Positions 8,001 to 63,572 are shown, counted from the first letter of the stretch. The stretch is 64,000 bases of DNA from Lingula anatina (GCA_051362555.1 CM120646.1:15252001-15316000), one strand, 5' to 3'. Program-made: numbers and translations. The notes: generated from the letters alone by a model not told the origin.

Positions 8001-8273
8001 ATATTTCAACCCGCAGGTGCTCAGGGAGACCATATCTGGACTGCGGGAGTTAATGCCCCTCAGACGAACAATGCGTGGGTATGGTCCTTCAGTAACACCC
8101 CTTTCACCCAGACCCCCCTTCACTGGGCTCCAGGTAGACCGATCAACATGAACGCCGCTATGAAGTTAAGGCAGGTGCCACAAACAGGCCAACTGGAGTA
8201 TTATGACGTGCCAGTGTCATCTGGAGAAACCGCCAAGGCTGTCTGCGAGCTAGAATTGCAATCAGGGTGCTAA
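2035..8273 (+). CDS. Secreted multi-domain C-type-lectin-fold protein (signal peptide, two divergent CTLD-like domains, Thr-rich CPWYNPxC repeat stalk, C-terminal CTLD), about 666 aa
   Basis: Exons 2035-2092, 2671-2880, 3155-3226, 4804-4886, 5266-5386, 5833-6036, 6451-6540, 6797-7702, 8017-8273. All GT-AG and phase-consistent; total 2001 nt ending TAA. Signal peptide MRILQSCSVLLAVCYTSLA. The C-terminal domain has CTLD hallmarks (FGRSCYYY, HLVEIND, IWTAG, WVWS, WAPGRP, VCE). AATAAA near 8481 and 8682. Confidence 0.85.
2130..2397. mobile_element. Non-autonomous DNA transposon (MITE) with CAGGGGCGGAT-type termini
   Basis: Starts caatggcagattta and ends gatccgcccctg; same terminal motif as the element at 53691-53858. 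Confidence 0.5.
7048..7458 (+). repeat. Coding tandem repeat: 8 x CPW(Y/W)(NP/QT)xC separated by Thr/Ser/Pro linkers (core unit 51 bp)
   Basis: Read directly in ORF 6703..7761: CPWYNPFC, CPWYNPNC x4, CPWWQTNC, CPWYNPYC, CPWWQTNC. Confidence 0.95.
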
Positions 8274-36200: not shown

Positions 36201-38402
36201 TTATCTTCTCAGGACCAAAGATCAAAACTTCCCAGCTTTCTCCTTCATTCCATGAGTATCTGTTTTTTAGTAATAAATTTCAAATTTATTATGAAATATA
36301 ATCCAGCGGATTATTTCTTCTACTGTGATATGGACTCGAAGTTACAGTTCTTGTGACAGATTCTTCAAACAATGGCTCGAACAAGAAACTTGGGCTCCCA
36401 AGAAGTCAGAAAACTGCCAATACTCAGAAAAATCTCATTATTGTTTTTAGCAGCCCACAATGACCAAAAAGTCAGAAATCTATAACACACGCCAATTATC
36501 CAGGCATCATGGGGAAAACAACTACTTACAAAATCTCATTGGTCATTTCATACTGTCGGACGGCCACTATTAACCCGCCGTGGTCACCAAAGTTGTAGAA
36601 ATGCTGGCCTTTCAGTACCTGCAGAGTATACAGTTAATTTGTGAGAATATTTTCTTTTAGTTCTATGTTAACCTCCAATACCCCAGTAATCATTTCCTCC
36701 TCCAGAGGCAGTCAGACAGAAAACCTGACAACAGTAGCAAAAGAGAGAAAAAATGAAATTCAATATAGTTGTTAAAGAATTTTAATATTAAAGTTGTTAT
36801 ATGTGGTACACACATTTTTTTTCAATTCATCTTATTCACACAAATTATATTCTTAATTGCTTATAAACTAAGAGTATTATTTTTCACTTATTCTTCTACA
36901 TGTAATTTTTTTTTCTTATCATTCATTTATATATATCTATCCATCTCTTTTTTTTTAATTCAAGGACCACACCTCCAACATAAGTTAACAAGATGAACAA
37001 ATGGTGCTGCCATAACTGCAATACCCACACCCCACTCACCTCTTTCCAGTTGGCCCCAGCATCTGTCGTGAGATATATATTGGGTAAGTGATCTCGCAGT
37101 GATGATGTCACATTGGTGACCCCAGTAGCCATAATGAGGCCTGGTGCTGACGCCTTGCTCAAGATCTCAGCTGTGCGGGACCGTGGGTACAACTGCTGAA
37201 GTCGCTGGGTGAGGTGGAGAGAGCAGTCCATGAACTGAAATGACAGGCAGCCATTAAAACTAATACACACCAATATATAAAAGATGACTGTTTGATCTGA
37301 TCCTCTACTAAAATTACATACTATCAACAGCATATTATATCAAACAGTCATATTTCTTTCCTAAATAATAACAATAAACGAACTATTTTAATTTTAACAT
37401 TTTTTAAATAAATAATAAATATATATGAAAATATATAATACACATAATACTCTGAACTGAATGGGATGTTACAAAATTTGAAAAAAAAAAAAGCATACAC
37501 ACTGAGCCACAGATGTATGAACTGTAACATCCACATAATAGAGTACATACCCTATAACAATGAGTGTGGTTTCCTTCACTGTCCTGATACGGAGCATTTA
37601 TCCTCTCCCACATACCTCCCTGACGAGAAATATGGTTTAGAAATTAGTTTAAAGAAATAGCATTGATTATAGCTATAATTATAGGTCAATTTATCTGTTT
37701 ATTATAGATGTACATTTTCTGGCATCTGTCTGATAAGTTTCACTTCAGCCAAACTCCAGAACAATTCAACTGAATTCAAAATGTTGAACCAGAACAAGGA
37801 TAAATTTGGAGAAACATCATAATATTTTTACATACAGCATTAAGTCACAATGGATCAAGCTTGGCATTTTGGATAAATTATACATGATTCTGAAGTGAAA
37901 CAAGCTTCTGTCTTTTTAATGTAAGAAAGAATTGTTTACAAGTACCTATATAATATATAAAAAAAATCTGCCATAGTTACCTTGTCATAAGTGATCAGGG
38001 TAACCTGTCTGTCAGGATCCAGGGTGCCATTGGCCAGCTGAGAGGCGATGTATATCCCACGCAGCCCGTCAACACGGTGAATGTCAGCAAAGGATTCGTC
38101 AGCAAAATACCTGTTCATAAATGGAGAGAAAATGCATATGCATATGAGCAATTCACAGTGTGAATGCGCGTGATTGCGTATGAGTGCATGTGTGCAGGTG
38201 CGCACGTCTTCATGTATTTTAACTAAATCCCCAAAAAATGTGTCTTGAAACATTTCACAATTTCTTGCCAAATTAGAATGTTCCGCCATATGATAAAATT
38301 CATTATATGTCCAAACTGTGTAGTTTAGTGTTTAAAAATATACACAACTTCTTCCACCAATAATAATAATAAAGATTATTCAGCCACTGTGTGTGTGTGT
38401 GT

Positions 38403-38484
<82 letters not shown>

Positions 38485-41400
38485 TATTAAATATACTTTC
38501 TCTGGTTAAAGAAAAATCAAATTGGTAAAAAAAAAATGCGATCCCTCTTGCTCTGCCCTACCTTAACCAGGTGTCCTTCAGAGCTCCCTTGGGGTTGAAG
38601 TAGACCACCCTCTCCAGGGACAGGGAGAAGTTGGTGCCACTAGCATCTGAGATGTACAGGTGAGTGAGGGTGGCGTTGTGGTTCACACAGGCAAACACCT
38701 GGTCTTCTGAGGCATCAGCTATGTAGTAGTCCTGTATAAGATAACATTGGGTACATGTGGATTAGGGTCAGGAAAATAAGACCAGTAGAAATGGGTATGG
38801 GGAAGTTTTTGATTTACACATTGTGTACTCTATAATTATTATTCTTATTAATATTATTATTATTATTGCTATGAATCTTGAAAATATTGTTCTAATTTAA
38901 ATTATTTGATAACTTTACACTGGAGAGATACTTCAGAAAATATTAATATCTAAAGAAAATTAAAGACCATATTGTAATAAATTCAACTGTAAATTATAAT
39001 AAGACTTGTTTTTAAGAAGTCTTCCAAATATATGCACCTTATCAAATTTTTCACAAAAGCATAGACATCACAAATATATCAAAGTTACATGTGATTGTTT
39101 ATGGCTAAAGTATGAAAATATATTTCTTGTGAATAAATGAGATGTTAAACATACACAAAAATGTTCACACTAATTACTATGTAAATAAACTAAAACAGCA
39201 AATCTCAACACATTTCTTAGCTTCAGTAACAAAAAAGATGGCTCAAGTTCCTTTATCGTATTCCTCCACATTTTTTCCTTAATTCAGTTAAATTGGAGAA
39301 TGTTCAACCACCAAATGCAGTGTTTCAAATCATTTGTACCCAGCAAATTTAAGCTTGGGAAGGGTATTGTTTCAGCATGAGGAATCGTTAGGAATGTCTA
39401 CCACCGATTCTTAGACCCCGTTCCCATACCTAGATGGATTTAGCAGGATCAACCCATCTCCGAGGGGTTTCTCACTTATCTGCATTCAAATCAAATGACT
39501 TAGATGTCTGACATGCCTAATGAAGCTGCTCAACGATAATTAATTACCCCCTGACAGCTTCAGTAAGCATGCCAGACATAAGATCCGCTTAAGCTGAATG
39601 CAATTTAGAAAGAAACCCCTGTGCCAATCCTAATTGATCGATCTAGGTATGGGAACAGGGTTTTATTCACAGAAACCTCCTTTCTCTTGGATGTGTAGGC
39701 TATATTTTATTCTTACCAATCCATGTAAGCTGGTTGGAAACCGTGCACGGGAGAAAGAGCCTCCATTGTGGGAAACCCAGAGTATCTGGGATTGGTTATG
39801 ATGGGAGTCTGCTGTGAGGGACTATAATGTAATAATATAATACCACATTCACAAGCCTATATCCTATATAGTCAACACAAACAATGACACAAATCAGAAG
39901 TACACGTGTGAGTGCTATCCTATCTGGTGCTTTCATACGGTGGCTTCTGCATATTCCTACTGTAACACTGAAATGTGAAGAATGTTAACAAAAGAAAGCA
40001 TGCTGTCTTTAGTTGAAAGAAGGGTTTTGTTATCTCACATACTGAACTGAAGATCAACTTTTCTTTTCGAAACGGCTGTATTTACTCTGTGGGTAGACAA
40101 AATTTACCAGTGTTGTGATATCATGGAATCATTTTAAATGGTCGTGAAATGTTTGAATTTTAACTCCATATTAAAACATGGAGTATGGATCTGCATGATA
40201 CAAACACCCTTCAGTCATTAAGACACAGGACTGTAAGTCTAAGAGAGAACAAAATACACGTTTTCTCTGGGACACACAGCTCTCAGTAGGAATTTCAGTA
40301 AAATGCAAAGGTTGGAAAAATGGGATGGAATGCTGATTTGTTTATCTTTTTCCTAAATCTGATTTTAATCTGTTTATTATTTTTTCTTTTTTTATTCATC
40401 TTATTTATCTTAATTTTTCATTTACATTTACTGAAATCCCTCATTACTATTCAAACATCAAAACTTGAAAAAAAAAAAGGCAGAAAGCAGGAATAATAGA
40501 TGGCACTGCAGGCGGCATTAAAAAAGCCAACAGATGGAGCTGCTGTCTGCTGCAGTGGCCACTGGGGCATTCTTACCCTCTCAAATAATTGTGATGGAAA
40601 ACGAGCTCTCTGGAATAGCCCGTCCCTTCCCGAGACCCAAAGTTGCAGAGTTAAATTCTGCTTTTGACTGCCTGTAACTCTCTAATTAAAAATCAATAAC
40701 AGAGCGAGGTTTAACTCCAAATTACACATTTAATACCTTTCTCTAATGCAAATGTACTTATTACAAATTATATACAAAACAGTTAAATGGCATAAAACAG
40801 AAATGGATAGCTAGGAAATATACTTAATATGTAATAATTCATGAGAGAGAGAAAGAGAGAGAGAGAGATCATTCAGTGTTGTTCCAGCTTACCATACGCC
40901 TGGTGGCAAACATATAATCATTCTTGATTTCAAAATCCACCACATCAGCAAACACCGTCCTGATGTTCAGTGGGTCATAGTTGTGCATCTTTATCACAGT
41001 GGATAGCCCTGTGGGTTCCAGGCGCTCCAAGTACAATGAGGCATTATTTATACCAGTGCCCCTGAAAATAAAAACAGTGACCTTCAGGGTGCATGTGCTG
41101 TATATTTATACATATGAGTGTGTTGAACTTGTTAAAGCCAGTTTTTTTTTTTTTTTTTTTTTTTGAGAGATAATGCGAACTTATGTGGTCCAAATGGTTT
41201 TAGGCCTGCTTACACTACAATTAACTTTCAGGTGGATGCAGGCCAGTTTTTTTTTTTTTTTTTACAATCCATAAGTGCATGCTTATCAGCTCTGATATTT
41301 GGCAACAATTTCAGTCTACCACATCTCTCAAAAGAGCATTCAGCTGCCTGGATTTTGAGGTTCCAATAAGCACTGCTTAAATTCATGCCCATCTTGTATG

Positions 41401-44400
41401 ATAATTAGAAACTGAAAAAGCTGGTACACTGGATCTAAAACTCAGGCCAGCATGCTCGTGTATTCACACAAAAACATTGTTAAATATGGATAATGCAGTT
41501 GTTAGCTTATCTTGAGCAGCCACTTGTTACCACAGATAATAGTAGAGTGTATGCCAAATATGATAACATGTTTACAGGGGTATATTTATGTAACAAGTTC
41601 TACAACAATAAAACTTGTGCTACAAAATAGTGGTCACTCTTGCCAAAGGATAACAACATTGATTGCTATTGCAACTCAAATTTCAACCAACACATGGCAC
41701 TGAGGTGAGCTAACCATAGTCTTGTTTCACCAACTTTTTTTTTTTAATGGATCTTTATAAATCTGAAAAAAAAAGATTATCTCACCACTGGAATGATTTG
41801 ACGTTCCTCTGCAGCATTGACCATGACCTCCCAAAGTCTCGGGACAACCACAGCTAAAATACAGTTATATCATATATCATAATTCTTGTATTAACTTCAT
41901 ATTGTAAGCACAACACAAATACAGTAGAGGTCCTCCCTCAACTTGGTGCTTTACAACTCAAATTATCAATTATCACAAACAAATCTTATGGAGCCGATTG
42001 TTTCAGTGATATTAAGTGGAATTAATTTGAACATTGCCTATATATCAGATAAATCCAACTTATATACATATATCTAAGTAATGATGACAAGCCTCTATCC
42101 TATCTAATACACACATAATTCTAAAATAATCTCATTTCACGATTAGTACATTTGGTTTTGTTAGAGTCGTGAAGCATCGATCTTCCGACAAGAGCACTCT
42201 TCATTTTGAGCAAAAATATTCTATTTTAGCTTTAGTACAAAGAGAATTTGCAATAATATTAGTTAAAGAATAATAATATACATAGCAGTTAATACAGACC
42301 ACTTTCGTTTTGAGTAAAACTATCCTTGTAAGTTGTCCAAAACATATTATGCACGGAAGACTATTTCAGAATAAAAATATATTTTACAGTTTATATGGGT
42401 AATCTTCAATTTGAGTAAAACTATCAATTTAAATTGCTCAAAACATACTTAGTCTGATATCAGAAAAACAAAATACTGAGCAGTTTACTTACATCACTTT
42501 CTATTTGACTTAAACATTCTGAGATAACCTTTTCTATACTAATAAACATCAATTAATGAAATACTTACCAGTTTATAGGGATCATCCTCATTTTGAGCCA
42601 GTACAATATTGGGGATAGACCTGTGGGGGACCACCTGTTTAGGGGTAAAGCTGAGAGGGACCTTGGTGAAGGTCCTCCCAAAGTCTGTGGTGACAAACAT
42701 ATAGTTGTTTTTGATGTCTGTGAACAAGTACTGAAATGAAAGTGTACATATATATCATGAGAAATTGTTAATTAATTGACTGACTGATTAATATTATCCT
42801 ATAAATCCCATAATCAACCAAAATGGTTATGGCATTGAAACTTGTTTATCAAATGCTCAGTCTTTTTCCTAATCTACATATGAGGTAACAACTTTTGATA
42901 CATAAAGTATTACGTACATTAATATATATGTAACTCAGATTAGTAAAACTTGAGCGATACACGACTTCTGATTAAAAAAAAAATTTTTGCTTCTCATGTA
43001 GTGATTTATTTGATTTATGTTAGTTAAAGAATTTAACTTTTAAAGAAACAAGCTAAAGTTGATAATACCTCAGCTTGTTTCTTATGGTGTACATAAAGAG
43101 CTAAATGAAATATAAAACTTTCACCAAGCAATTGACATGATAAAAAATGTGCTTTCATACACTCACATGTGTATTATACACAGGACTGTTATAAAACTGG
43201 CTGATGGTTGCATTCTTCGTCCGATTCAACTTCAGCGCAATGTGGCGGAAAGAGTTCCCATAGTCACTGGAGACATAGAGGTCGCTGCTAAAGTTTGGTG
43301 AATCAACATTGGTGTCCCTGGCCAGTGCTACTATGACGTCAGAGTTCTCTCCAGCCCAGTGGACAATCATTTGATGGTGAGAGTCATGCAGCTCCACCTA
43401 TTGAGCAAAAGATAAATTAAATCAGTCAGCACTACAGTATTTGCAAGGTCAGAATTTGAAATGGGTTGCAGGACACAAAAAAGTTCTATTTCACCCTGTT
43501 TAAAGAAAACTTGTCTGATATGCTCTACCCTTATCATCCACCTTGTGATAGGAGAAACAAATTTTATGCATTTTAAATGGGTAGGAGAAAAGCACAACTT
43601 TAAATAAAAAAGGGGAATACATAAAAATTTAACAATAACAAGTAAAAGTAACAATCTGATTTGCGCTGTCGTATGTTACATTATTAGGGAACTTCCTGGT
43701 AAAATTAAAATTTTTAAAGATTTTTAGGAAAATAATTGAGAAGTGTGATTTTAATGCTTAAAAGCATCAATGATGCTTGTTCAAGATGTTAACTTAGAAC
43801 TGATTCAAATTCAGATTGTCAGGGAACTGTAACTACCACTGTTTATGAATAGTTATTTTCAAAAATACAAGTACAATAATTGTATTATTCTATATAAAGT
43901 TTACTGACTATAGTATATCATAAATCAAAATAATGTCATATGCACCTTGAATACTAAAGATCCCAGTCATGCATGATAAACAACAATCCACCCTGACAGT
44001 TATAGATACTTTTCTAAAAATACACACTTGGTTTATAATGCCTGTACACACACCAACACACCCTTGCACACATATGCACTCATACACGCACTAAATGATA
44101 TTTATTTAACATTATGTAGAATATAAAACTTATCAGGTTAAGAAACTGCATTTGTTCACTTTCAACCAAAAAAGATTTTTTTTCATTCTTTTTTCATCTT
44201 TCCCATGGTTCTTTAAGTCTGTAAATAAGTCATGGTTCCAGTTTAAAGTAAGATCTATTCTATTCATCTCAGTAAGTCAAAGTTTATGGATAGCTCACCA
44301 AACAGAGTCTACCTAATCATTTAATTGTCCCCCCTGCACCTTTTGGTGAGCTGGGCAAACTTGCTAGCTACTTATAAAATTTGAAAAAAAAAGAATCAGA

Positions 44401-48741: not shown

Positions 48742-51310
48742 AGAACTAAGAAAAGAGACTGTTTTCTTTGTTGGAAAACCACAGGAAGCTAGATTTTGTA
48801 CTTATGTAAGTCTGGAGCTTCTGAACCATTTCCTGTTTAACTATTCACAATAGTTACATAGAAATTAGGGAAAGGAAAAAAAAACATGCTTGTCAATTAT
48901 GATGTATAGTTTCCTGGGTATGATGACGACCAGAAGTTGGAGCTTGTCATAAGTGACTGCAGTTGTAGAAGAACTGTAAAATACATTGTAAGAGCTAGCT
49001 ATAGCTTTCAAATGCAGACGATCATTATCATAATTATACAGTACGTGGGTTGTTATACTATATAGTCCATGATCACCATACCACGATAAAAAAAACAAGC
49101 TGTGTGTTCCTATATTTTCCTTTCATTACATTTTCAGCAAATAAGTAGGGCCTATATATTGGCTTGTGGGCCCAGTGCCGTAAAAATGACTGCCTGTGCG
49201 AGTCGCTCTACTAAACTACTAAGTTATAACAGGCCATGGAGTAGATCAGGGCGATTTGTATAGGGTGGCGACTGTAAATACAAAACCTTCGTACCTTGAC
49301 GCAAGTCTTATAGAAACTGCAAGTCTTCATTATGACTAATATAGTTTATGAGAAAGCGAAAACAAGTCTTAGAATTTTCTGGCAATAAAGCAAAATGTAT
49401 GGAAATAAAAAGTCGTCACCGAAAATTGCAAGAAGCTGAAAAAATATTGTCTGGAATTTGGTAAGATCTAAACTTAAGTCTGCCAATCCCAACATAACCC
49501 GTGATATGGCAGAGGGGTTTTATTGATATAAGTAAGCATTCGCCAAACACAAGAAATTATAGAAAATTAAATTAAGTTGTGCATAATTTGGTTGAAATCG
49601 TGGAAAATCTGCGGAGACAATTGGAGTGTTGTACTCCAGAGACTAGACTGCTACTAGTTGTCCTTTAACATACAGATCACCAAGATATAGTGAGTCTCGA
49701 AATTTAGCGTACAATCAAGCGAGATTCCCCAAGAAAAGAAGAAGTGTTAGTCAGAAATAATGACAGACTAACGAATGCGGCAACGCAGAAAAGTTGGCAG
49801 AATTTATTGACATATTTTTCTTGTTGTTTATGACAGTGTATAACAGTACGGTACGAACTCACTGTTTTCATGCCAGCGCTCGATGTTACTTTAGTATTGT
49901 ATTAATTCCCAGAACATATTGTTTTGTCTTTATCGCTAAAAAATTTAACCACATCAAGTGGATTCTGGCACGTTTTCTAGTCTACCATGACGTCACGCAG
50001 TACCAATAGCCTCGTTCTGTTATCAAGGTTTGGTGACGTCACAGGATGGGTGTAGCGCATTCAACGTCTTACCAGAGTCCGTTCTCGCATCGAGCGGTAC
50101 TCTCAGAGGGGTATCTTAGTCAAACAAAGACTTACCTCTACATTATAGTTTAACCTTTAATAAGTCAATTCCTTTGGTTGAAAACGCACAATAAAACTTC
50201 ACCTATTAAAAATTTACATTTTAATGAGTTCAAGGAGTAACCCGTGGAGCTTGTCCCTAGGAGAGATGAAATATCCCATGCCAGAATCAGGCCTACCCAA
50301 CTACCAGACTCGGCACCTAAGGATCCTGAATTAACCGGTATATCGGACCACACTACCCGTTTTCAAGGTGTGTGTCAGATCGCATTTCGCATTACCGATG
50401 CGCCAGGAGAAGGCACGTTATCTTCAAGAACAATTTCGGACAAAAACACTAATATTAGCGACCGCAAAATGCGTCGATTCTGTTGGAGAGTAAAACACAG
50501 CTTTGGAGTTATCAATTGCTAGTTTTCAAACATTGGTACCTGCCCTTCGGCTTGAATGTCAGTTTAAGAACAAAACAGTTTATCAACTGAAATAATTATA
50601 GCAAGGGAAGCCCAATCATCGTTCAGATGTGACAGCATATCAAAGGAACGGTCGATTCGCAGGAAGAAAGTGCGTTATTCACCAGTCTGGACTGGTTCAC
50701 TTTGGACAACTTTATAAAAAAAACTGTCTGTAACGTTTTTAAACAGAGCCATACACAATTTTATGGTTGGCTTAACAACAGGAGCCGAATTCTCGGAGAA
50801 ATTGTGAAATGGAGTGAAGTCCCGTGAAACCTCCGTACATTCGGATGTCTCGAAACGAGCCACTTTGACTGGATCAGTTTTAACAACAGGAAAAGGGTCA
50901 AAGTGTTCGTGTAGAAAGGAGTTGGCCTTTTTCCAAACAGACCATTTGAGTTTTACTGCTACATTTGTTTCTGTTACTATCGTCATGTCTGCCGCACCTA
51001 TGTTTGTATGGACAGGTACATGTGTATTCAATCCACTTTGACCGCAAATTGCACTTGTCCTCCCCTTGTTTCCTCAGCCCTATTGTTTCAAGTAACCTGA
51101 AAGAAAGATGTCCTCGTTTAGCACGTTATTGCCCCCAGTAACTCTGAGCATGTCTCTTTACCACTGCTTCCCACTGATAACAATAGGCATTACCCTACAT
51201 CCATGTGACCTGTCGGTGTCAGCAGGTAACGCGCTCTACCTACATAACTTTAGTATCATTCAGACACAGTGGGAGAGAGAGCACGTTGGGACTGCTCCGA
51301 CACTGGCAGA

Positions 51311-54300
51311 ATGTCCTCTCTTTTTCGGCTGGCAGCGACGGTTCTTTTAGTGGTGGCTTCTTCCGCAAAGGGCGCGATTGCTCAGAGCAATACGAACGAG
51401 ACGATCGCCAGGGCGTGGGCTGAGGAATACAACCAAAGAGCGCAGATTGTGTTTGCAGAAAGCGTGGAAGCGGATTGGAACTACAGTACTAACATAACCG
51501 ACTATAACAGAGATGTTGCAGTAAGTACTTACTTATACTAGTATAAGAAAACGTTTTTTTACTTGGGTACGGTCACGAAACAGTGGCGAGTTGGTATAGG
51601 TTCATACCAAGCTAGAGCAGCATCTTTATTTGTGAAATGATTCAGCCCCCTTATTCAAGAAGCGGGTCTTTGTGGACCCTTTTCTGGGATGCTTCTCTCT
51701 TCTAACTCGGTTCGTCCCATCTGAGCACGTCACCATAGCACTATAACCCAACTAATTTTTTAAAGACCGAAACTTGATCTTCCTCAGTGGGAGTTAAATT
51801 CATAGTTGTCCACAGAGATAAGGTACACTTTCATCTGAAAAACAAGCCATTTATTTCCTGCTATAAAACCATGCAATAAAATCAAATAAAATAATATAGT
51901 TGGACGACTACTGATTTATATTGGGCCAAAGGATTCGTTCCCACTGAAACTGCCGTTCTACTTAGGTCGATCCAAATCCGCGGGGACTCTCGCTGAATGC
52001 AATCACATTAACAGATAAACACACCCCCTCTTATTTCTAACGTAGTCGTATAATCACCACATTTTTAGTATTCTAGTCAATGCCAAGAGGAGGCGTGTTA
52101 GGCTCTATTCCCATAGATTTTAGATCGATCTATCCCCGCGGGGAGTCTCACTAGATTACTGTCAGCTTGGCCGGCTTAAGCGTCTGTCCCGCCTACTTAA
52201 AGCTGTAAGGGGGTAATTAACTATGGTGTCCGCTCGGCTGACTGCAATTTAGCCTGAACCCCCAGGGAGTTAGGTCGATCTAAACCTTAATCTTTAGATC
52301 GATCCAAATCTCTGGGAAAGCACCCCAAGAGGAGGCGTGTTAAACTGCTAATCTGATTGCACTCAGCGAATGAACCCAAAGTTGACTGAAGAGTCCAGAT
52401 AAGGACAGTCGACTTGCCTTAATTTCGGACGGGCCAAGGAAGATGTCAGATTTGCGATATCATTCTTTGATTAATTGATTTTTCAAGTGAGTTTGTTTGT
52501 TTGGAACATTGTACTTTGGAACTCTTTGTCCTAGATTAATTTAAAATCATACTTTATTTATAAAATAAAAAAACGTTACAAAACCTCTGAGTAGCAGATG
52601 GTTTCCAACTGAGCACAGACATTAAAAAGCACTGCATTTTCCACTGTGATACGTTTGGCAAATTTGATATTTTTATAATTTTAGTTTACAGTTAAAAAGT
52701 AAAAAAGATAAATAAATCGTAAGATAGCTATAATAGTTTAAATAAGTTTATTCAAGTAGTAGAAGTGTTGTCCAGGAAAGGACTTGATCGGTTTGTGGGC
52801 CTAAAAATTTTGTTATGCATAAAGAGGAGGTTTACTGGCAGTTTTTAACGTACGGTACATACATTCTTAAAATTTTTTCTAACATTCTGAGTGGAAAAAT
52901 TTTCTTTAGCATAGAATTAAATCCTGAGTACACTCCACGTTGTCCCTTTCTCCTTACTTATTTTCTCTAAGCTTTCCTCGCGTAAATCTGAATACGAGCA
53001 AGTACCCCAAGACGTTTTAACATGACTATGAAATATGGATTGAATTATGGATGGCGTAAATTGAATAACCAAACGTTTAGCGAGCCATCTGATTATAGTT
53101 TACTCGGGTCATTGGTTGCAAGTTGGACGTGTTTCGGGTACGCACGCATTGTTTCGAAGCAGTATATATGTTGTACCGACGGCATGGACCCAAAAACTGA
53201 AGTTTAACTACGAAAAAAAGGAAAAAAGACATAGTCGATGTCCGTCTAGTATACAAATTCAGTTACATTCAAATCTTTGCAGAAATAAAGGGATTACGTG
53301 TATGATGAAATCTGCACCATTTACTGTGCATGTGTAAATAAAATGTATTTTTAGACCGTCATTTCTCAAGTCTATATTTATTCATTTCCGCACCCATTTT
53401 ATAAGGAGCTTGTGACAAGCAATTCAGTCGTTTACTGAAGCACTTCTAAAACGAAAATCGAGACTGTGAAGTGTGTCGTAAATGTTTTATCAGTTGAAAG
53501 CTGTCAATGATTAAACATGTTAGCGCAGGGCAAGTGCGGCCATGCACCACCCCTAATACCAACGCAGTGGATTAATTATTAATTTAAAGTGATTGATAAT
53601 TAATCTTGGTTTATTTTCACAAGATGAACAGTACAAAGATAGTGATAATCCAGTAATCGGGGCGTCTTTCTCCTGATGTTGGACAATAACCAGGGGCGGA
53701 TTTAGGCCGTCTTCAGGGTCTTCCGGAAGACGGTCAGATTTTCAAGTTTACATTGACGGGTATTTAATTTTTTCTGTCGGAAGACGGTCAAAAAAGGAGG
53801 ATGGATCAACAAAGATAATTTGGAAGACTGTCAGAAAATATCTCTGGATCCGCCCCTGATAACCCTCTTTCTATATGTGGATTGATAAGTACACTATCAG
53901 TTTATGGACGCGTATAATAGTTCAGTTTTCAGACTGCTTTGCTGCGTTAGTCTGCACCCTATTTTGGTGATTGGCATGGAGTATTTATCTATTGAACACA
54001 TACTTAGATACATATTTTTTATGAAACCTTATTATAGAAAAGCGGTGAATGTATTTATTACTGTCACAGAGTAAGCGTTTAAAAAGTTTTTAAATGAACT
54101 AATTTTTATGCAGTGATACACTGTCCGGCTGCAAACAAGGGGCTCATTCCCAATGAACTGTCGTTCTACGTAGATCGATCCAGCTCTCACTGATTGCAAT
54201 CAGGCTAGCAGATTAACATGCCTCATTTTGTTTCTAACGCACTCGTATAATGGCCAGCTTTTTTTGTATTCTACTCGACCCCATGTCTGTTTATTTGGCT

Positions 54301-56877
54301 AGAAATCTCATTCGCAATAAATACGTTCGATAAAATGATAAAAAATGACACATATTTAACCATATAATAAATTTGAGATGAAGCATCCACGTTTTCAATA
54401 AACACTTCACCGGTACGGGGTAGGCCATTTAGATAGCTATCTACCTGTATGCTGTACCCTATATTCAAATGTTACTTTTAATTATAAGTATTTTACCAAC
54501 GAAAATAAAGTTAATTGTGAGTCGAGTTGTGCGAACTAAGTGATTTTTCAGCCGTATCAAGCTGGGCAATTTTTCACACTTAATTGAAGTTCTGAGACCC
54601 GTTACACGAAATGGATTAAGCCAGTACAATATAGGAGTTCAATAAAATGATGCATTGCCCGTGTTTTATAACAGGAAAGACGTGATCAGACCAGTACTTA
54701 TCTTTTGGGCGGACTGCTATTTATTCATGTTCATCTGAAGTACACTAAATTCCGTTTTAGGGTTCATTTGCGACATCGTCCTTTAACCCTTGACTGTGGC
54801 ACTGTTCTTCCCTGTTGCTAGGCAGGTGACGCTAGATACGTGAATTTAATGATGGCGACACTTTGACTGATTTGGATACAACTTTATATTCATCAGTTTG
54901 AAGTCAAGCACCTGGACAGTCAAATATATTGTAAAAGAATGTGTCTGCAGTCCGCTCCCCATGAACGCTTTGAAAATAAACGCATTATTATTATTTTGCA
55001 TTTTTTTCCCTGAAATGCAAGGTATTGCTTTTGTTGGGTGTAATATAGGTAAATGATCACGACTCTAACACGCTTTTTAATATACATACATGATTTAGTT
55101 TGATGCCTTTTTATTTCATTGCCCATGTGTTCCTGTTTTTGCACTTGTTATTGTTGCGTTGTTATCAATATTCATCTGCGTGTGGTATTCATCTAAACAA
55201 GAAGAGGCCCGTTTATAGTGATGTTAACCTAACAATAACTATCTTGTCCTGACAAAGTCGGAGGTCGGTGGCCTCAATATAAGATATGATAGCAATAGGA
55301 TTAATGTATTTACCATGTGGTTTGAGTTGGATTCAGTTTTTTCTGACGTGCTGAAAACAAACATGGTGCGATTGTTTATTGACTTGTATTTTTAAACTTA
55401 CTACGACCTTTCGTCCGCTGTAGTTCTATTTTCCAAACATCTGTTCACGTGAATGTAAACTGTCCCCGTTTGAAAATGTTCCAAAGTCATGCGTTCTTTG
55501 TCTACATTTGTTGCAAAGCTACGTCTCTTTCCCAATTAAGACTCGAAAAACGGCAAAACCTCACAAATAAAAGTACCTGATGTCGATTTTTCCTTAGAAA
55601 AATGTACAGGCAGACGTGGCGGTCGAAAGGCTTTTAGAAAAAGTATAAAGACCGGAAGTATATAACATAAAATGGCATAAAACATCGGATCAGGGGCAAT
55701 GGATCGTGCTAAGGACAAAATAAAATAAAAATAACTCGGGAATTTTGGATAGAATGCCAGTTATACCTACAGCTTGTATATGGTGCATTTTTGGTTCGTG
55801 CCACGTTTTACATATGCAGGACGATTAAGAGAGTGACTTCACAGCGTTGTGGGAATCCTCACTCGAAAGAAAAGAAAAGGACTGAACGAATTGTTACGGG
55901 ACTATTTTATTTAAAGTAAATCTCAGTTCTGGTATTAAATTGGAGCATATAGCACTACCCACAGAAGATTCAAGATCTAAGGCTACAAGCAAGGCTGAAA
56001 TCAAGAAGAATAAGCAGAAAGTCGAAATCTGTGGGGATCATTCAATAGGAAAATGAGATTCGTTTTGGGTTATTCGGTGGCTTTCTCTATTATCTTCCTG
56101 CAAATAGCAACAGCACACGAAATCAAATCGGAGCAAGAAAGGGCAGTCCAATGGCTGAGGGACGTCAATGACCGCGCCGGCAGAGTGTATAATAACTTAC
56201 GAGTGGCAAGATGGGTGTACGCTACAAATATAACTAAATTTAACGGAGAAAGACAGGTAATGTTTTGTTAACAGTTAATTTGTAACTGCTATGTAACCGT
56301 AACCGTACCGTAAGGGATAAAACATAAAACTGGTGTCAGTCTTATTACTGTGAATTCACCAATCATAATTGTTCTTTCATATTCTATTTCATCGAAACCT
56401 TGCGTGTATTGAATACGTTGAATCAACTGCGTTAGTTTGTTACAACATTCATTTTCTGGTGAGCACGTTCCAGTATAGGTTGTTTCAACAGCGAACATCT
56501 GTGAAGCTACAGACACAAAATGCCTCTTATTTTATATGGGCAAAGTCCTCGCAAATCGCAAAAATATGTGACAACTAGGACTCGAAACGTTGCTCATGGG
56601 GTAGATCATATGGACCATTTCATCACCGTTTGCTTGCTTTATGAGTCAAACATTCATAAGTAATATACGTGCTTGGCACTGCCTTCTTAGTGCAACAGGG
56701 CCTCCATGATATTACTGCTGAAAGCTGAGAAATCCACGAAGAATTTGACTGCATTGTTAGAAAGAAGGAAGGACATTCCATCACAGAACATTGACAGATT
56801 GGGGGGCACAGCTTGTATGAGGAACCCTATACCCCCCACCCACCCCCACCCCAAATCAGAGTATAAGGTTGTGTTCA

Positions 56878-56917
<40 letters not shown>

Positions 56918-58115
56918 TATATGTAATTTTTATCCGAACACAATTCAGCAACATCTTTGTTTAATCAGCCCCGACAGCGGGCCTTTTCGGTTGGGGAGAT
57001 CGAGGCTCTGCAGAGCTCGAGCTCCTTCTGCTTTACCCGCGGGCAGTCCCTACCAGAAGAGTGGCTTATTGTATTATTTTGCATTGCATTGTATTGCAAA
57101 TTGCGTTGCATTATATTATATTATATTATATTATATTATATTATATTATATTATATTTAGCACAACGCCTCCATCATGTCTGCAGAGTTTGACAGAGAGG
57201 CGGCGGCAAATGCTTCATTGTTTGCCTGGGAGAATTTCACCGATCCTGATCTTAGGAGGCAATTCAGAAAAATCTCCGATGTCGGCTCTGCAGCACTCCT
57301 TCGCAAGGACAAGGCAAAATACGAGAGGGTGAGTTGATGACACAGTGATGTCACGTTTTATAAGCATGAAGTGCATATGTGACAAAGACATAATACGAAA
57401 CGATCGTGTCGTAGAGCATTTATAAGAAAATGGGTCTGCTCTGATGTCAGCCAAGACGTAGCTAGTACGCCCTTCGGAAATATTTCAGTGTACAGAAATC
57501 GCAATGACAATATTCATGTACATATGACCTTGAGGCAATGCAAAAATATTTATCTGTGGTTTAGATTGAAGTAGGTCTGGTTGGCTTGTCTCTGTGTTAT
57601 GTAAATGTCTAAGATGACATGAATGTCAGTAAGGTCAGAAAGCTTTCCGGATCAGTTACTTTTTGCTTTCCAAATATGCAGCATGTGACAAGAATATTTT
57701 TCTCTCTTTCTTTCTTTCTCGTTCTTTCCTTTTTAAGCATAGAGGGCGAATTTTCTTTAATAAGTTGGGGACGTGTGACGAGAATTCGGTGTTAATTTTG
57801 CGTTGTAGGCATAACAATTCAGGTTCATAAAAACTAAAATTGACGCACTCACTTCCTTCACGGTAAAATTCAACAATTTCGCTCATCCACAATGTTTTCA
57901 TCCCATCGATTAAAAATCCTGACAGAGTAGTTTGTATCCATTTCAGCTCATATCGTTGGTCACCAAGATGGAGACCACTTATAGCGAGGGCCAAGTATGT
58001 GACAAAAAGGGCACGTGTTTAGATTTGGAGCCAGGTTAAGTATACGACACACTTTTTTGTTTATTAACCTAGTAGTGAATTGTTTGTTTTAGGGCTTTAA
58101 GATCATTGAATTTAA

Positions 58116-58163
<48 letters not shown>

Positions 58164-59275
58164 CTTATTTGTTTAATGTCCAGTCCTTATTACAGGTCTT
58201 ACCCGATTAATGGCCACCTCGAGAGATTATTGGGAACTTCTTGATGCCTGGAAAGGATGGCGGGATGCAACTGGACGAAAGATTCGAAACGATTACAAGG
58301 AATTTGTTGATCTCAGTAACGTGGCCGCTGTTGAAAATGGTAAGCTAGTGAACGCCTGTGCATATGCGTGTTTGCACTGGTGTACGTTTTACTTAATGTG
58401 GTAGAATCATATGTGCACCTCACACATCACTTTTAAGATATTCAAACCGTTTTCAAATTAAAATCACTATTCCTGAATCGAAGGACTTGGTTAACGTAGT
58501 TACCGGTTCTATTCGTATTTTTTATCGATCCAGATTTATCGATTTATTTTATGGGAATTAATAGTAATTTCCCCTTTTTTATTAAAAGTAGCTACGATCT
58601 GTTAACCAGATTTAAAGCTCGAGAGGGGCTCAAAAATCCGAAACTTGAACATGCTCACAGTATTTCACTGAACATTTTTTATTGCGGTATCAACCTTATC
58701 CACTCAAACCAAAAATACCATGCTTTCTGCCATTCTTGCAGGGTACCGAGACACAGGGGACTACTGGAGATCCTGGTACGACACTGCCGACTTCCGGGAT
58801 CAACTAGAGCAACTGTATGAGGAGATGAAACCGCTCTACCTTAACCTACACGCCTATGTGAAGAATAAACTGAAGGCAAAATATGGAGAGAGCTTGTTTC
58901 CACCGAGTGGACACATTCCAGCTCACTTATTAGGTATGGGTGTTATCACGTTATAGATGTGTTTCGGAAGTATGCGACAACTTAATCTTGAAATATCACA
59001 GTTTGTTAAACCTTGATGTGTTGTGATATATGTAATTTTAAAGAGATAATAACTTTTCTTATGAGATTCGTATTTTACCACCAAAACAGCGGTTATCGCA
59101 ATTATTCTGGAATCTCTGCTTGTCATCAGACCATGTGAGCCTTCATAGATGGCTATATCTCCTTAATAATCCGTTAAGAAATTATTACAGACACCAAACT
59201 TTAAAAAATGGACTAACTTTGATTCATTAACCATAGGCAAGTATGGGAGAATCGTCGTTTACCCCAGGAAAATTC

Positions 59276-59320
<45 letters not shown>

Positions 59321-62300
59321 CAAAATGAACGGTTGTCATCCCTTTAAAATGTTGTGATTACTGTAGACCAAAATTTTTGTTCGAGATGAATTGAAGTATT
59401 GTATGAGTGATAATGCATTGACACGATTTCAAAACATTATGAGAAATATGCTTCAATATATTGCGTTGGGTTAGCCCCATTATAGAATGAAATCAGCATT
59501 TATAAAATATGATATTGAAGTCATTCAAGATATGTATGTCACTGATATGCCTTTGATGATATATAAATTTATACCGTATTGTCAATATATATTGTGAAGT
59601 GAAAACAAAATATTTTTTATTCGGCATCAACACACATGACGCCATTGGACGTACTCTCAGTATGACGCTAAGTAAAGCATTTCACTGATTATATTTTCAA
59701 GGGAATATGTGGGCCCAAAGTTGGAACAATATATTCGACATCGTGGAGCCTTTTGCTGGGAAACCTAGCGTTGACGTCACCCCTAAGATGAAGGAACTGG
59801 TAATGACGGGCTCATAAGTTCTCTTCCTTCTGAAAGTATAAAAATTTATTCAACGGTTATTGTACTGGATATTTTTTGTGTGGTGGCATCTATATTTTTT
59901 TAGTATTGGCATCTATAAATTAAGATATAAACACAATATTAGAGCATTGAAAATGTTTCACTCGTAAGTGGTGTGAAATTGCACATCAGCATTGAAATAT
60001 GGCAGTGTTTTTTATCTCACAAGCACAACACTGCAAGGTGTGTTTTTTTAATGAATTCTTGGAATTTGATTTAGAATTACACGCCCCGTAGAATGTTCAA
60101 CATTTCTGACGAATTCTTCACTTCGCTGGGTTTGAAAACAATGCCGCAGGAGTTTTGGGACCATTCCATGCTAGAGAAGCCTACGGATGGACGTAGGGTT
60201 GTGTGTCACGCGTCAGCCTGGGATTTTTACAACCAAAAAGACTTCAGGTAAATGTCAACATTGGTGGCCTTTGTAACCGCTCAAAATAAGATCAGTAATA
60301 GTGAGCTGACGTCACAAGACGACCAGATATACACAGCATAGGGGTCTCCCTCGTGATTTTTTCTTTTGATCTGTAACAAGTTCTCTAGGGGTAGGGGGGC
60401 TCTATAGCACGCATATCATCCCCTAACAATGATACAATGGTTTCTACGCCTCCCACGCGGGCCGTTCCAGCAGAGGCAGGGCAATTAAATCTCGGCATGT
60501 TTTCGGGGTGGGTGGCGCCATATTTGATCCGCATACTAGTTAGTCCGCGGAATAACTGGTTGTGAATGCTCCCAAAGAGATAAATGAGTCATTGGGTTTC
60601 TTTTTTGGTCAGAATCAAACAGTGCACAGACGTCACGATGGAGGAACTGATCACAGTCCACCATGAAATGGGCCATGTGGAGTATTATCTCCAATACAAG
60701 GATCAGCCAGTTGTGTACAGGAGGGGGGCAAATCCCGGTATGGATTGCGTGTGTTGCTTTTGCTTTGAATAGTACTTAGTTAACTCCTTAATGTACAAGA
60801 AGTTACATTCATTAGAATGAATATTGAATTGGAAAAAAACTATTGTGAGATTCGTAAAGATTGTTCTGAAAAAAGGAATCACCCCTTCATAAAATTAATA
60901 AATAAAATGAAATAAAAGAGCAAACGTAATAAATGAATAAATTGCGCGTTTACAAATGTTCGTATTTATAGAAACAAGATAAAGACCCTATTTCTAACAC
61001 GTACTGTGCAGCACATAGCTCTAGGAATACAGGTTACAATACAGAAATGCTAGGTTTAAACTTTGTTTAAGCAAGACACAACTAAGACGCACTCCAATTC
61101 TCTGTCCTAATACTTACAGGGTTCCACGAGGCTGTTGGTGACGTACTGGCCCTTTCAGTCTCCACGCCAACACATTTGAAAGAGATCGGGCTGCTGAAGA
61201 ATGTTACCAATGACAGTGGTAAAAACAATGAAATATTTGGGAAATCTCGCGTTTTCCGTTTTCAGTGTTTTGTAAGAGAAAAAGTTATCAAAAGCATTGT
61301 GCTATTTTCATATGATACTTGATAGGTATTTTTTTTACTTCCAACAAGTGTCAAACATTACAAGCCGTGTCCCTATGCTAATAAGCATCAATCCTTTTTT
61401 CTTGTAGAGAGTGACATAAACTATCTAATGAGCATTGCCCTGGACAAAATTGCCTTTATTCCATTTGGATATTTGATGGACCAATGGCGCTGGGGTGTTT
61501 TTGATGGGTCAATAAAGTTTAAGGATTATAACAAAGAGTGGTGGAAGTTACGGTAGGTGTGGCAGGTAACGCATTCGCAAATGTGCTCAGGTGTGCCGTT
61601 TTCACAACTAACACATTCATATTTTGCTTTCATTCGACCCAACGGGATTGGTTTTGTATTATGTTCATTCGGCCAGAATCCAGTAATTTTTTCAACGTGG
61701 GGTGGAAATGGCCTTATTTTGTGGTCGCACACCTAACGCACTCCATATATCAAAAATCCTCCGAATGAAAAAACTTTTTCTTTCCGTCTTAGCAAATTAG
61801 TTATGACTGAAGTGGAATTGAAAAATTACTTTTCCGATTGAAAACAAGAATCAGTGTAGCTTATTGTCAAGAATTTGATGAATGAAATTGCATCAATATA
61901 CATCTTCATGCCGCTTATTTCCAAGACACCTCATTATCTGCATACTGTAAAGGGGAATTTCAAATATAAAACAATTCATCAAAGATATTGATTCTTTTCA
62001 GGTGCAAATACCAAGGCGTTTCTCCCCCAATACACAGGAATGAAAGCGAATTTGATCCTGGTGCCAAGTATCATATACCAGCTAATACACCATATATAAG
62101 GTTCAGTTTCAGTGTATATTGAAATTGTATGTTAACCATTGCTAGGTTCTTGGTATAAAATGAACCTCCAGATCCTGACTAATTTACATGAAAGGCATTT
62201 AGTATACATTAGATAACTGAAAGTAATATAATGGTGCATATTAAAATGCAGTTTATTCTTGGTACCTTTCTATCCAAGTTTCTAAATTTTGATGAATTAT

Positions 62301-63572
62301 CAATCAGTTTGTGTGATTGTTTTTATACACAGTTTCCAATATTGAGCATTTACATCTCTGTGTGAAAAAAATACTCATTAATTAATATGATGCAACTTTT
62401 TGAATAAAAGTGGCTATGGCATTCTCATATTTAGGAGAGGGATTTTTTGCTTTGTAAACAATTTTCAGGTGATTATTCAAAATTCAAAAATATATGTCCA
62501 CACCAAATTGGCTTAAGCATGAGTCTTTAAGAGTATTTTCAAAGAAAGTTAACAATAGAGCTGTATAAGCTTGAGAAATCTCTATTTGATTTCTCTCCAT
62601 ACTAAAAACATTCTAAAACAAGATAATCTAATTCATTTTTAAACCTTTATGTCTTCAGGTATTTTGTTAGTTATGTCCTACAGTTCCAGTTCCACGAGGC
62701 CCTCTGTAACACAGCCAATCAGACAGGTCCCTTGCACATGTGCGACATCTATCGATCTACAGAAGCAGGAGCAAAACTTGGGTAATGTGGCTGTAAAATT
62801 GCATACTAAATAAAATACATATCGTTAGTTCATTACGTATCATTTCATTAGTCTGATATACATTATTTTGATTAAATTATCAGTTACTAAGTTCCTATTT
62901 ATTAGTATGCAACCCTCAACAGAAAGCTATGGAAAGTGTACCAAGACATAATTCACTACTACGACACTATTTGTAAATTCTAGCTATATATTCAAATTTA
63001 GTATCAGCAAGTATATAAATATAGAAGAAATAGCATTTCTGCATTCCCCCAGTGAAAATTCAAAACATTTTACAGTATAACTGTTGCATAATGTCACAAT
63101 TGCCTCAAGCATTGTAAAACACTTCTTCATATGACTGCATATATTTGCCAAAAACAATCCAGTGTAACTATCACACCTACAGCAATTAAACCCAAACATC
63201 ATTACAACTAACACAATCCCTTCAAACTGTGAAGTCTTTAATATTATCTATTTTTCTTTATATTTTAGTAACATGTTAAAACTTGGATCTAGTAAACCAT
63301 GGCCAGAGGCACTGGAGCAAGTTACAGGGACCCGTAACATGTCCGCTAATGCCATCTTGCTCTACTTCAAGCCTCTAATTGATTGGCTAAAGGTCCAAAA
63401 TGCAGGTCAGGGCATAACATGGTCTGAAGAATGTCCAACTGAGTTTTACACGACTACTTCTGCTCCTTCAACCACCACCAAATTCAAGCCAGCAAATTCA
63501 ACAGGAAGGTTGCATAATAGTTTCTTTATAGTAGCCTTTATATCTGTATTGACACGTTACATTGTAAGATGA
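51311..63572 (+). CDS. ACE: Angiotensin-converting enzyme, single catalytic domain (peptidase M2), about 655 aa
   Basis: Exons 51311-51520 (or 56053-56256), 57161-57328, 57947-58034, 58196-58339, 58742-58933, 59702-59799, 60075-60247, 60613-60737, 61120-61218, 61408-61552, 62002-62100, 62659-62781, 63269-63572; 1968 nt, in frame. Motifs [67 protein letters not shown]. Confidence 0.95.
51935..52378. mobile_element. Nested foldback MITEs (inner element 52101-52324)
   Basis: The outer copy resembles 18519-18755 and 54140-54273. The inner copy has TIR-like ends (ggctctattcccatagattt / aaatctctgggaaagcacc) and is flanked by direct repeats ccaagaggaggcgtgtta. Confidence 0.65.
53691..53858. mobile_element. 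MITE with TIR CAGGGGCGGAT and 5-bp target-site duplication ATAAC
   Basis: caggggcggat...atccgcccctg with ataac at 53686-53690 and 53859-53863; internal repeated ggaagac(g/t)gtca. Confidence 0.8.
54140..54273. mobile_element. Truncated copy of the foldback MITE family
   Basis: gggctcattccca...gttctacgtagatcgatcca...tgcaatca...tcgtataat...gtattcta aligns by eye with 51935-52075. Confidence 0.6.
56053..56256 (+). CDS. ACE: ACE alternative first coding exon 1b (signal peptide + N-terminal helix)
   Basis: [68 protein letters not shown]|gtaatg; phase 0; homologous to exon 1a (W.Y.TNIT..N). Confidence 0.85.
57111..57157. repeat. (TTATA)n microsatellite abutting the ACE exon 2 acceptor
   Basis: About 9 units of ttata followed directly by tttag|cac at 57160/57161. 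Confidence 0.9.

What the first reader, a model, noticed from the sequence alone, without database searches (positions are those of the whole stretch)
39717..40681. Duplicated, probably mutually exclusive exons in the SorLA VPS10P propeller
Seen: two exons of identical length (105 nt, 35 aa), identical phase (0-0) and identical gtaaga donor lie between the ...YMFATRRM and [13 protein letters not shown] exons. They are [35 protein letters not shown] and [47 protein letters not shown] is conserved in protein despite heavy DNA divergence, so both appear to be under selection. Known: human SORLA has one such segment, and including both would disturb the closed 10-blade propeller. Inference: two receptor isoforms differing in one blade surface (6a Arg/Lys-rich; 6b with four His, so potentially pH-sensitive in endosomes). 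I know of no described mutually exclusive exon pair in SORL1.
Basis: partly seen in the sequence, partly recalled or inferred. Interest (0 to 1): 0.85.

Follow-up and report, generated by a model that had tools for sequence, protein, structure and literature searches.

The report
Swappable twin exons in SorLA receptor
In the brachiopod Lingula the SorLA sorting receptor has two copies of one exon that RNA reads show used as alternatives (one common, one rare), likely retuning a ligand-facing surface, and database gene models double the same exon in ribbon worms and lampreys.

Summary
Both 105-nt, phase 0-0 exons are in the Lingula anatina SorLA gene. In 8 RNA-seq runs, 138 reads join exon 5 to 6b (skipping 6a), 136 join 6b to 7, and 6 join 6a to 7 (skipping 6b). 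No 6a-6b joint was listed. 6b is the main form and 6a a minor one (6 of 64 exon-7 joints). RefSeq already holds both isoforms. The exon equals human exon 7: top-face loop 2-3, strands C and D of blade 5. New here: database models double the same exon in two nemerteans and in lampreys (4 of 20 multi-member clusters), each with a copy whose loop is 5 residues shorter. It is single in 6 of 6 genomic loci spanning the slot. Repeated duplication is more likely than one ancient origin, but the trees do not decide. Verdict: a known kind of splicing event in a new gene; function untested.

The parts
40893..41061 (-). Constitutive upstream exon 5 (human exon 6 equivalent); ends in strand B of blade 5; donor GTAAGC
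   Evidence: joints 41060/41785 and 39821/40893; match to human SorLA chains
40577..40681 (-). Alternative exon 6a, 105 nt, 35 aa, minor form; RefSeq isoform X2 residues 308-342
   Evidence: 6a-to-7 joint 38730/40576, 5 reads at 3 starts in X8 and 1 read in X9; AF2 model
39822..40576 (-). 755-nt GT-AG intron between the two copies; too long for simple steric exclusion; AG-exclusion zone before 6b only 33 nt
39717..39821 (-). Alternative exon 6b, 105 nt, 35 aa, major form; RefSeq isoform X1 residues 308-342
   Evidence: 138 reads 5-6b and 136 reads 6b-7 over 8 runs
39337..39365 (-). Intron stretch that can pair with 6a 40651-40623 (-31.6 kcal/mol); weak lead, probably chance
   Evidence: 0 of 25 shuffles reach it, but 1 of 89 same-size window stretches does, and 9 region pairs were tested
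39415..39661 (.). MITE-like long hairpin inserted in intron 6b-7; not part of the mechanism as far as tested
   Evidence: inverted repeats I1 and I2; fold -129.7 kcal/mol; reads that run on into unrelated sequence
38562..38731 (-). Constitutive downstream exon 7 (human exon 8 equivalent); starts strand A of blade 6

Best explanation
Lingula SorLA carries a tandemly duplicated phase 0-0 exon whose copies are spliced as alternatives (6b common, 6a rare), which swaps the outer half of propeller blade 5 and likely retunes the ligand-facing top face without changing the fold. Shown: sequence anatomy, selection on both copies, both bypass joints in reads, and position on the domain by homology to human exon 7. 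Predicted: both copies complete blade 5 (6a modelled; 6b by homology). Inferred: the copies keep the structural core (LWVS, G, F, RARFP, and an N-glycosylation sequon at residue 9) and differ in loop 2-3, the Asp-box turn and the blade 5-6 linker, so the isoforms would differ in cargo, partner or dimer contacts. Exclusion is inferred to come from regulated splice-site choice with 6a mostly off, because frameshift decay, U12 mismatch and a short intron do not apply. Inferred history: this symmetric exon was duplicated more than once (Lingula, nemerteans, lampreys), which marks the loop as a recurrent site for tuning.
For: Anatomy and selection. A SNP in 6a reads (7 of 7 reads at 40595) is synonymous. 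Joints: 5-6b 138, 6b-7 136, 6a-7 6; none listed for 6a-6b or 5-7. Bin depths put a read end at the 6a acceptor in X8 and X9 (17-18 letters in bin 40665-40749). They also account for the X8 plus-direction and X9 spliced reads at the 6a donor as 6a-7 (4 letters each); one more such read is implied in X7. This bin arithmetic is my inference. RefSeq X1/X2. Human exon 7 = H314-N347 = blade 5 loop, strand C, strand D region and linker (PMC12667055 Table S8). The 6a model has pLDDT 91 and TM 0.90 to 3WSY, with strand C at about 93 and the loop at 72. Loop 2-3 is the variable, functional top face of Asp-box propellers (PMC2716378, passages), and SorLA binds ligand at the top face (PMC12667055). Alternative segments at the same boundaries in Lineus, Tubulanus and lamprey models. 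Single copy in 6 of 6 spanning genomic loci. Precedent: ITGA7 X1/X2 propeller exons alter laminin affinity (PMC12564407, passages).
Against: 6a support is thin: 6 listed reads, about 4 start places, from 2 runs of one study. The 5-6a joint never reached the listing threshold. Up to 2 reads per run of any joint, 6a-6b included, could be hidden, and one X8 bin is ambiguous because of intronic reads. 6a scores 31.0 bits against the single-copy profile, below 42 of 43 leave-one-out scores, so some relaxation is possible. Sea lamprey (2 of 15 listed models) and Tubulanus (1 of 3) have double-exon models, so strict exclusion is not universal. No ligand or tissue data: run labels are coded. No known SorLA ligand contact in blade 5 was found in the passages read. 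AU tests reject neither the repeated nor the single origin.
Confidence: 0.62

Rival explanations
1. 6a is a leftover spare: once functional, now spliced only by low-level leakage and slowly decaying, so the gene is effectively single-exon (6b).
For: No 6a joint listed in 6 of 8 runs and 6 of 64 exon-7 joints. Its profile score of 31.0 bits is below 42 of 43 single-copy orthologues.
Against: 0 of 20,000 neutral-decay simulations match it. Frame, length, splice sites and the sequon are kept. The one SNP seen is synonymous. It keeps more majority residues in the loop and strand C lead-in (G4, S5, T11, L12, Q13) than 6b does. It reaches 5 of 42 exon-7 joints in run X8.
Confidence: 0.15
2. The two exons are independent cassettes rather than strictly exclusive: both can be included, the extra copy forming a flexible loop on the top face, as with integrin alpha6 X1X2.
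For: Double-exon models in Petromyzon (2) and Tubulanus (1). AF2 keeps the propeller with residues 222-258 looped out at pLDDT under 50. Double inclusion is in frame, so no decay removes it. ITGA6 X1X2 is described this way (PMC12564407).
Against: In Lingula no 6a-6b joint is listed in 8 runs, the 6 listed 6a-donor joints all go to exon 7, and RefSeq has no double form among 3 cluster members.
Confidence: 0.12
3. History rival: one ancient bilaterian duplication, kept in brachiopods, nemerteans and lampreys and lost (or unannotated) elsewhere, including in jawed vertebrates.
For: All three short copies (Lineus, Tubulanus, lamprey) have a loop exactly 5 residues shorter than their partner and lose the strand-C Trp; 36 of 43 single copies keep Trp and 2 of 43 have so short a loop. 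The more diverged or minor copy lies upstream in the 3 cases where order is known. The lamprey short copy falls outside the starred vertebrate clade. AU p 0.109 does not reject one clade.
Against: That clade costs 12.35 log-likelihood units. The two Tubulanus copies are each other's closest match (12 of 27; support 90/86, not starred). The Lingula copies share neither the short loop nor the Trp loss. 16 of 20 multi-member clusters and 6 of 6 spanning genomic loci show one copy, which would need many separate losses.
Confidence: 0.25
4. One reading: 6b is a histidine pH sensor for endosomal release and 6a a pH-insensitive basic surface.
For: 6b has 4 His and 2 Lys/Arg, 6a has 0 His and 6 Lys/Arg. 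By the human mapping, three of the four His lie in loop 2-3 or the blade linker. Predicted protonation of His and acidic residues is invoked for low-pH dimerization of sortilin (PMC5700061, passages).
Against: His counts of 3-4 occur in 13 of 43 single copies and no His contrast recurs in the other three pairs. The described pH switch of SorLA lies in loops L1 and L2 (PMC12667055), outside this exon.
Confidence: 0.15

Closest known systems
Tandem-duplicated, mutually exclusive exons (Hatje et al. 2017, PMC5740500; Martinez Gomez et al., PMC8373072 and PMC9741552)
   Same: Adjacent homologous exons of equal length and phase, bypass junction reads for each, same structural slot, conserved core. 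Convergent origin in orthologous genes is described as common (PMC9741552, passages).
   Different: SORL1 has 0 hits in the PMC9741552 text and supplement, the PMC5740500 supplements and the PMC8373072 text and supplement. The recurrence here is at the same exon in three phyla. Tissue specificity was not testable.
Integrin alpha7 X1/X2 and alpha6 X1/X1X2 beta-propeller exons
   Same: Duplicated exons swap part of a beta-propeller ligand surface. In ITGA7 this changes laminin preference; in ITGA6 the second copy is rare and can be included together with the first as a disordered loop (PMC12564407, passages).
   Different: Seven-bladed FG-GAP propeller of an adhesion receptor, against a ten-bladed Asp-box propeller of a sorting receptor. 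No ligand effect is shown for SorLA.
Human SORL1/SORLA exon 7 (residues 314-347) and known SORL1 splice variants
   Same: Same exon boundaries and blade-5 position; same fold (TM 0.90 to 3WSY).
   Different: Single in human as annotated. A PCR scan of 46 internal human exons reported only delta-exon 2 and delta-exon 19 (PMC2776013, abstract and passages); that assay would not see a same-size swap.
NCBI RefSeq Lingula anatina SorLA isoforms X1 (XP_013407940.1) and X2 (XP_013407942.1)
   Same: These are the 6b and 6a products, both 2224 aa, differing at 21 positions within 308-342.
   Different: Automated models only; they carry no usage levels, structural placement or cross-species comparison.

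Membership tests
Tandem-duplicated mutually exclusive exon pair | Adjacent homologous exons of similar length and the same reading phase | tested here: met
   105 nt each, phase 0-0, 14/35 aa identical, both hit the orthologue profile
Tandem-duplicated mutually exclusive exon pair | Junction reads from each exon that bridge over the other (PMC5740500 criterion) | tested here: met
   5-6b 138 reads in 8 of 8 runs; 6a-7 6 reads in 2 of 8 runs, 5 of them in one run
Tandem-duplicated mutually exclusive exon pair | No reads joining the two exons | tested here: inconclusive
   None listed in 8 runs, but the listing threshold is 3 reads at 2 starts and only 6-7 spliced reads cross the 6a donor
Tandem-duplicated mutually exclusive exon pair | Both exons encode the same structural element | tested here: met
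   One 34-residue slot in human; the 6a model completes blade 5; 6b was not folded, placed by alignment
Tandem-duplicated mutually exclusive exon pair | Enforcement by frameshift/NMD, U2-U12 mismatch or steric hindrance (common mechanisms, not required) | tested here: not met
   105 nt is in frame; both donors GTAAGA; 755-nt intron with a 33-nt AG-exclusion zone; branch point not mapped
Tandem-duplicated mutually exclusive exon pair | Competing RNA structure (docker/selector) | tested here: inconclusive
   1 of 9 region pairs beat its shuffles, but 1 of 89 control stretches matched it; no conservation data
Tandem-duplicated mutually exclusive exon pair | Tissue- or stage-regulated use | not testable with these tools
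   Run labels are coded; 6a share differs among runs (X8 5 of 42; X7 none listed against 60; Fisher p 0.01-0.12 depending on hidden reads)
SorLA/SORL1 orthologue | VPS10P + 10CC + YWTD + LDLa cluster + Fn3 + membrane span and tail | tested here: met
   Pfam PF15902, PF15901, PF00058, PF00057 x10, PF00041, PF25814; best structure hits are SorLA; RefSeq name

The most novel reading that the evidence does not exclude
Blade 5 of the SorLA propeller is a recurrent splicing-controlled specificity switch. The same exon is doubled in brachiopods, nemerteans and lampreys, possibly from one ancient duplication lost in jawed vertebrates. Molluscs instead vary the neighbouring top-face loop L2 with an 8-11 residue cassette (6 of 6 isoform pairs checked). 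This would mark human residues 314-347, so far without an assigned ligand role in the papers I read, as a functional cargo or partner surface of the Alzheimer-risk receptor.
Probability: 0.3. Interest if true: 0.7.

Novelty: new member of a known kind. Interest (0 to 1): 0.45.

Why it matters
SorLA's VPS10P domain binds cargo at its top face, and most attention has gone to loops L1 and L2. If evolution has repeatedly made two versions of blade 5, that loop probably matters for what SorLA binds. The natural isoform pairs give ready-made swap experiments and may help rank human SORL1 variants in exon 7. It is also a tidy case of the same exon being duplicated in three phyla, testable as convergence against ancient retention. 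The splicing mechanism itself is a well-known kind, and both Lingula isoforms are already in RefSeq, which caps the surprise.

Tried and rejected
No whole genome is held for the window, so related genomes could not be searched at DNA level; cross-species evidence rests on protein models and 21 metagenome loci. The exon-5 homologue search found nothing among 30 candidates. 6a or 6b alone found no real PDB match. The 'shorter' search returned 44 proteins, none identifiable as a brachiopod or phoronid fragment. No indexed RNA holder was listed; the runs came by species label; 8 of the 9 were laid, X6 was not. RNA pairing as the enforcing mechanism: weak, set aside. Identity of the lamprey short copy across three genera (29/29) is uninformative, because the proteins are 97-98% identical overall. 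Exon trees on 34 columns are unresolved and 4 of 4 AU tests reject nothing. The first Tubulanus pair identity (14/29) included two upstream-exon residues and was corrected to 12/27; the tree and the and 72 loop counts still include them. No stop-free L2 cassette candidate in the matching Lingula intron 37251-37550. Earlier scan findings: nothing returned. Literature: 10 searches listed no paper whose title or abstract start describes this event. The library lacks most subscription journals, and the supplements of bioRxiv 2023.02.27.524103 (blade alignments) were not seen.

Full report
Observation. They share 14 of 35 residues and 49 of 105 bases. Identity is 19, 19 and 11 of 35 at the three codon positions (Fisher p 0.022), and 8 of the 14 shared residues have different codons. 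A simulation that mutated 6b neutrally to the same DNA distance gave 0 of 20,000 stop-free copies with 14 or more identical residues. The intron flanks have lost clear similarity, so the duplication is old and both copies have been under protein-level selection. No third copy lies in the window.

Gene. A search with exon 7 returned a 100% match, named by its source Lingula anatina sortilin-related receptor isoform X2. Its cluster also holds isoform X1. The two 2224-aa proteins differ at 21 positions, all within 308-342: X2 carries 6a and X1 carries 6b. The pair is therefore already in automated annotation. The domain architecture is that of SorLA.

Splicing. I laid 8 of the 9 listed RNA runs (6-30% of each run read). 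Exon 5 to 6b: 4, 10, 2, 47 reads (X1, X2, X4, X7) and 54, 15, 4, 2 (X8, X9, X3, X5), 138 in all. 6b to 7: 7, 7, 4, 60 and 37, 12, 8, 1, 136 in all. 6a to 7, skipping 6b with GT-AG ends: 5 reads at 3 starts in X8, 1 in X9, 0 in X3 and X5, and none listed. No 6a-6b, 5-7 or 5-6a joint was listed; the tool lists a joint only from 3 reads at 2 starts. Depth bins narrow what is hidden (my arithmetic). X8 and X9 each have a read ending at the 6a acceptor. The X8 plus-direction and X9 letters just beyond the 6a donor equal 4 per read, as 6a-7 joints give, and X7 shows one more such read. X2, X3, X4 and X5 have no depth on 6a; X1 has one apparently unspliced read; the X8 minus bin is blurred by intronic reads. 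So 6a makes up 6 of 64 exon-7 joints (95% interval 3.5-19%) and less over all runs. This meets the bypass-read part of the published definition (PMC5740500, passages), while the 'no joining reads' part rests on only 6-7 reads. Tissues are unknown.

What enforces exclusion. Not frameshift (105 nt), not donor class (both GTAAGA), and unlikely steric hindrance (755-nt intron, 33-nt AG-exclusion zone). One of 9 tested region pairs gave a strong duplex (6a with 39365-39337, 0 of 25 shuffles), but 1 of 89 control stretches did as well. By elimination I infer regulated splice-site choice by trans-acting factors, with 6a mostly off. This step is not shown.

Structure. In human SorLA one 34-residue segment fills the slot. 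Table S8 of PMC12667055 (supplement parts 20-21 read) shows it is exon 7, H314-N347: the loop after strand B of blade 5, strand C (L-W-V), the degenerate Asp-box position, the following strand region and the link into blade 6. An AF2 model of the 6a isoform has mean pLDDT 91.0 and pTM 0.88, with the loop at about 72 and strand C at about 93, and matches 3WSY at TM 0.90. In Asp-box propellers loop 2-3 is on the variable top face used for function, and the Asp-box on the structural bottom face (PMC2716378, passages). SorLA binds ligand at the top face and gates it with L1 and L2 (PMC12667055, passages). Both Lingula copies keep the core and an N-x-S/T sequon at residue 9 (present in 13 of 43 single copies). 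6a keeps more majority residues in the loop and 6b more in the turn. The model loops the extra copy out. AF2 is blind to stability and follows the alignment, so this only shows that breakage is not forced. The VPS10P dimer contact described in PMC9942828 (passages) is near Thr659, outside this exon.

Other species. I looked up 30 protein clusters chosen by me for lophotrochozoans, early deuterostomes and a few arthropods. Twenty had two or more SorLA members (9 were singletons; one cluster whose other listed members were short fragments without the slot was dropped). Four of the 20 fill this slot in two ways at the same boundaries: Lingula (35/35 aa); Lineus longissimus (35/31); Tubulanus polymorphus (33/30, plus one model with both); and lampreys (34/29; of 15 listed models 10 long, 3 short from three genera, 2 with both). 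Octopus, cuttlefish, scallop, limpet, abalone, periwinkle, a freshwater mussel, horseshoe crab, prawn, sea urchin, acorn worm, amphioxus, hagfish and two cartilaginous fishes show one version; two Ciona models differ only by an insertion at the start of the slot. These are gene models: I saw neither their DNA nor their reads, and absence from annotation is weak evidence. At DNA level, of 21 metagenome loci 8 spanned both flanking regions. Two lack the introns and six have exactly one copy as a discrete in-frame exon of about 30-34 codons. The three short copies all have a loop 5 residues shorter and lose the strand-C Trp, which hints at a shared origin or shared selection. Against a shared origin, the Tubulanus copies are each other's best match and Lingula lacks both traits. 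Holding the four minor copies together costs 12.35 log units, p-AU 0.109; holding 6a with 6b costs 1.17, p-AU 0.454. I put repeated duplication at about 0.65-0.7 and a single ancient origin at about 0.25. A symmetric 0-0 exon duplicates without a frameshift, so recurrence need not be adaptive (inference). Separately, 6 of 6 mollusc isoform pairs checked differ by an 8-11 residue cassette between the two cysteines of the segment matching loop L2, so the top face is varied by splicing in that phylum too.

pH idea. 6b has 4 His and 6a none; 6a has 6 Lys/Arg and 6b has 2. Among 43 single copies His counts run 0 (5), 1 (12), 2 (13), 3 (11), 4 (2), and the other pairs show no contrast. It remains possible for Lingula but is not a general principle.

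Comparison with what is known. This works like, and on the tested features belongs to, the tandem-duplicated mutually exclusive exons. Convergent origins in orthologous genes are documented (PMC9741552, passages). The closest functional analogue is integrin alpha7 X1/X2, propeller exons that change laminin preference, with alpha6 X1X2 as a double-inclusion parallel (PMC12564407, passages). SORL1 does not appear in the three human catalogues I searched, and a human exon scan found only skips of exons 2 and 19 (PMC2776013). None of my 10 literature searches listed a paper on this event, within the limits of the library. bioRxiv 2023.02.27.524103 and PMC5700061 were read as passages only.

Verdict. 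Real feature; alternative use shown, strict exclusion likely but thinly sampled; function inferred. New member of a known kind, made more interesting by recurrence of the same exon duplication in three phyla. Interest 0.45.

Noticed in passing
Stored proteins P0170/P0311, P0172/P0322, P0008/P0167, P0014/P0169, P0199/P0334, P0174/P0332: In 6 of 6 mollusc isoform pairs checked, an optional 8-11 residue, often basic or aromatic cassette sits between the two cysteines of the segment matching SorLA loop L2. Lingula has an intron at the same place (37251-37550) but no stop-free cassette candidate.
   Followed up: partly
window 39758: The window has A (Ser22 of 6b); RefSeq X1 and nearly all reads have G (Pro), for example 78 of 78 in X7 and 64 of 66 in X8. 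Probably an assembly error or a rare allele.
   Followed up: yes
window 39415-39661 and 52140-52227: MITE-like hairpin (-129.7 kcal/mol) in intron 6b-7, with a partial second copy. Many RNA reads from other loci land on it, so the family is widespread in transcripts.
   Followed up: partly
Stored proteins P0056/P0362 (amphioxus) and P0088/P0383/P0384 (prawn): Other optional segments in SorLA models: 13 residues in the 10CC region in amphioxus, and 2 or 10 residues between LDLa repeats in prawn.
   Followed up: no
Stored protein P0151 (XP_023931121.1): A second partial Lingula SorLA model on a 9.7-kb contig begins exactly at exon 6b and is nearly identical; probably a haplotype fragment.
   Followed up: no
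window about 50900-62800, + strand: Angiotensin-converting-enzyme-like gene, on the opposite strand from SorLA and divergently oriented (Pfam PF01401 in 2 of 2 exons tested).
   Followed up: partly
window about 5200-13000, + strand: Exons of one or more genes with Thr-rich tandem repeats of a Cys-Pro-Trp-Tyr-Asn-Pro type (6691-7758) and segments that look like C-type lectin domains by eye (recalled resemblance; no Pfam hit for 6691-7758).
   Followed up: no
Runs X7, X8, X9 on window 37900-41900: Reads of study P3 differ from the window at many more exon positions than P1 or P2 reads, suggesting a distinct population under the same species label; all listed 6a-7 joints come from this study.
   Followed up: no
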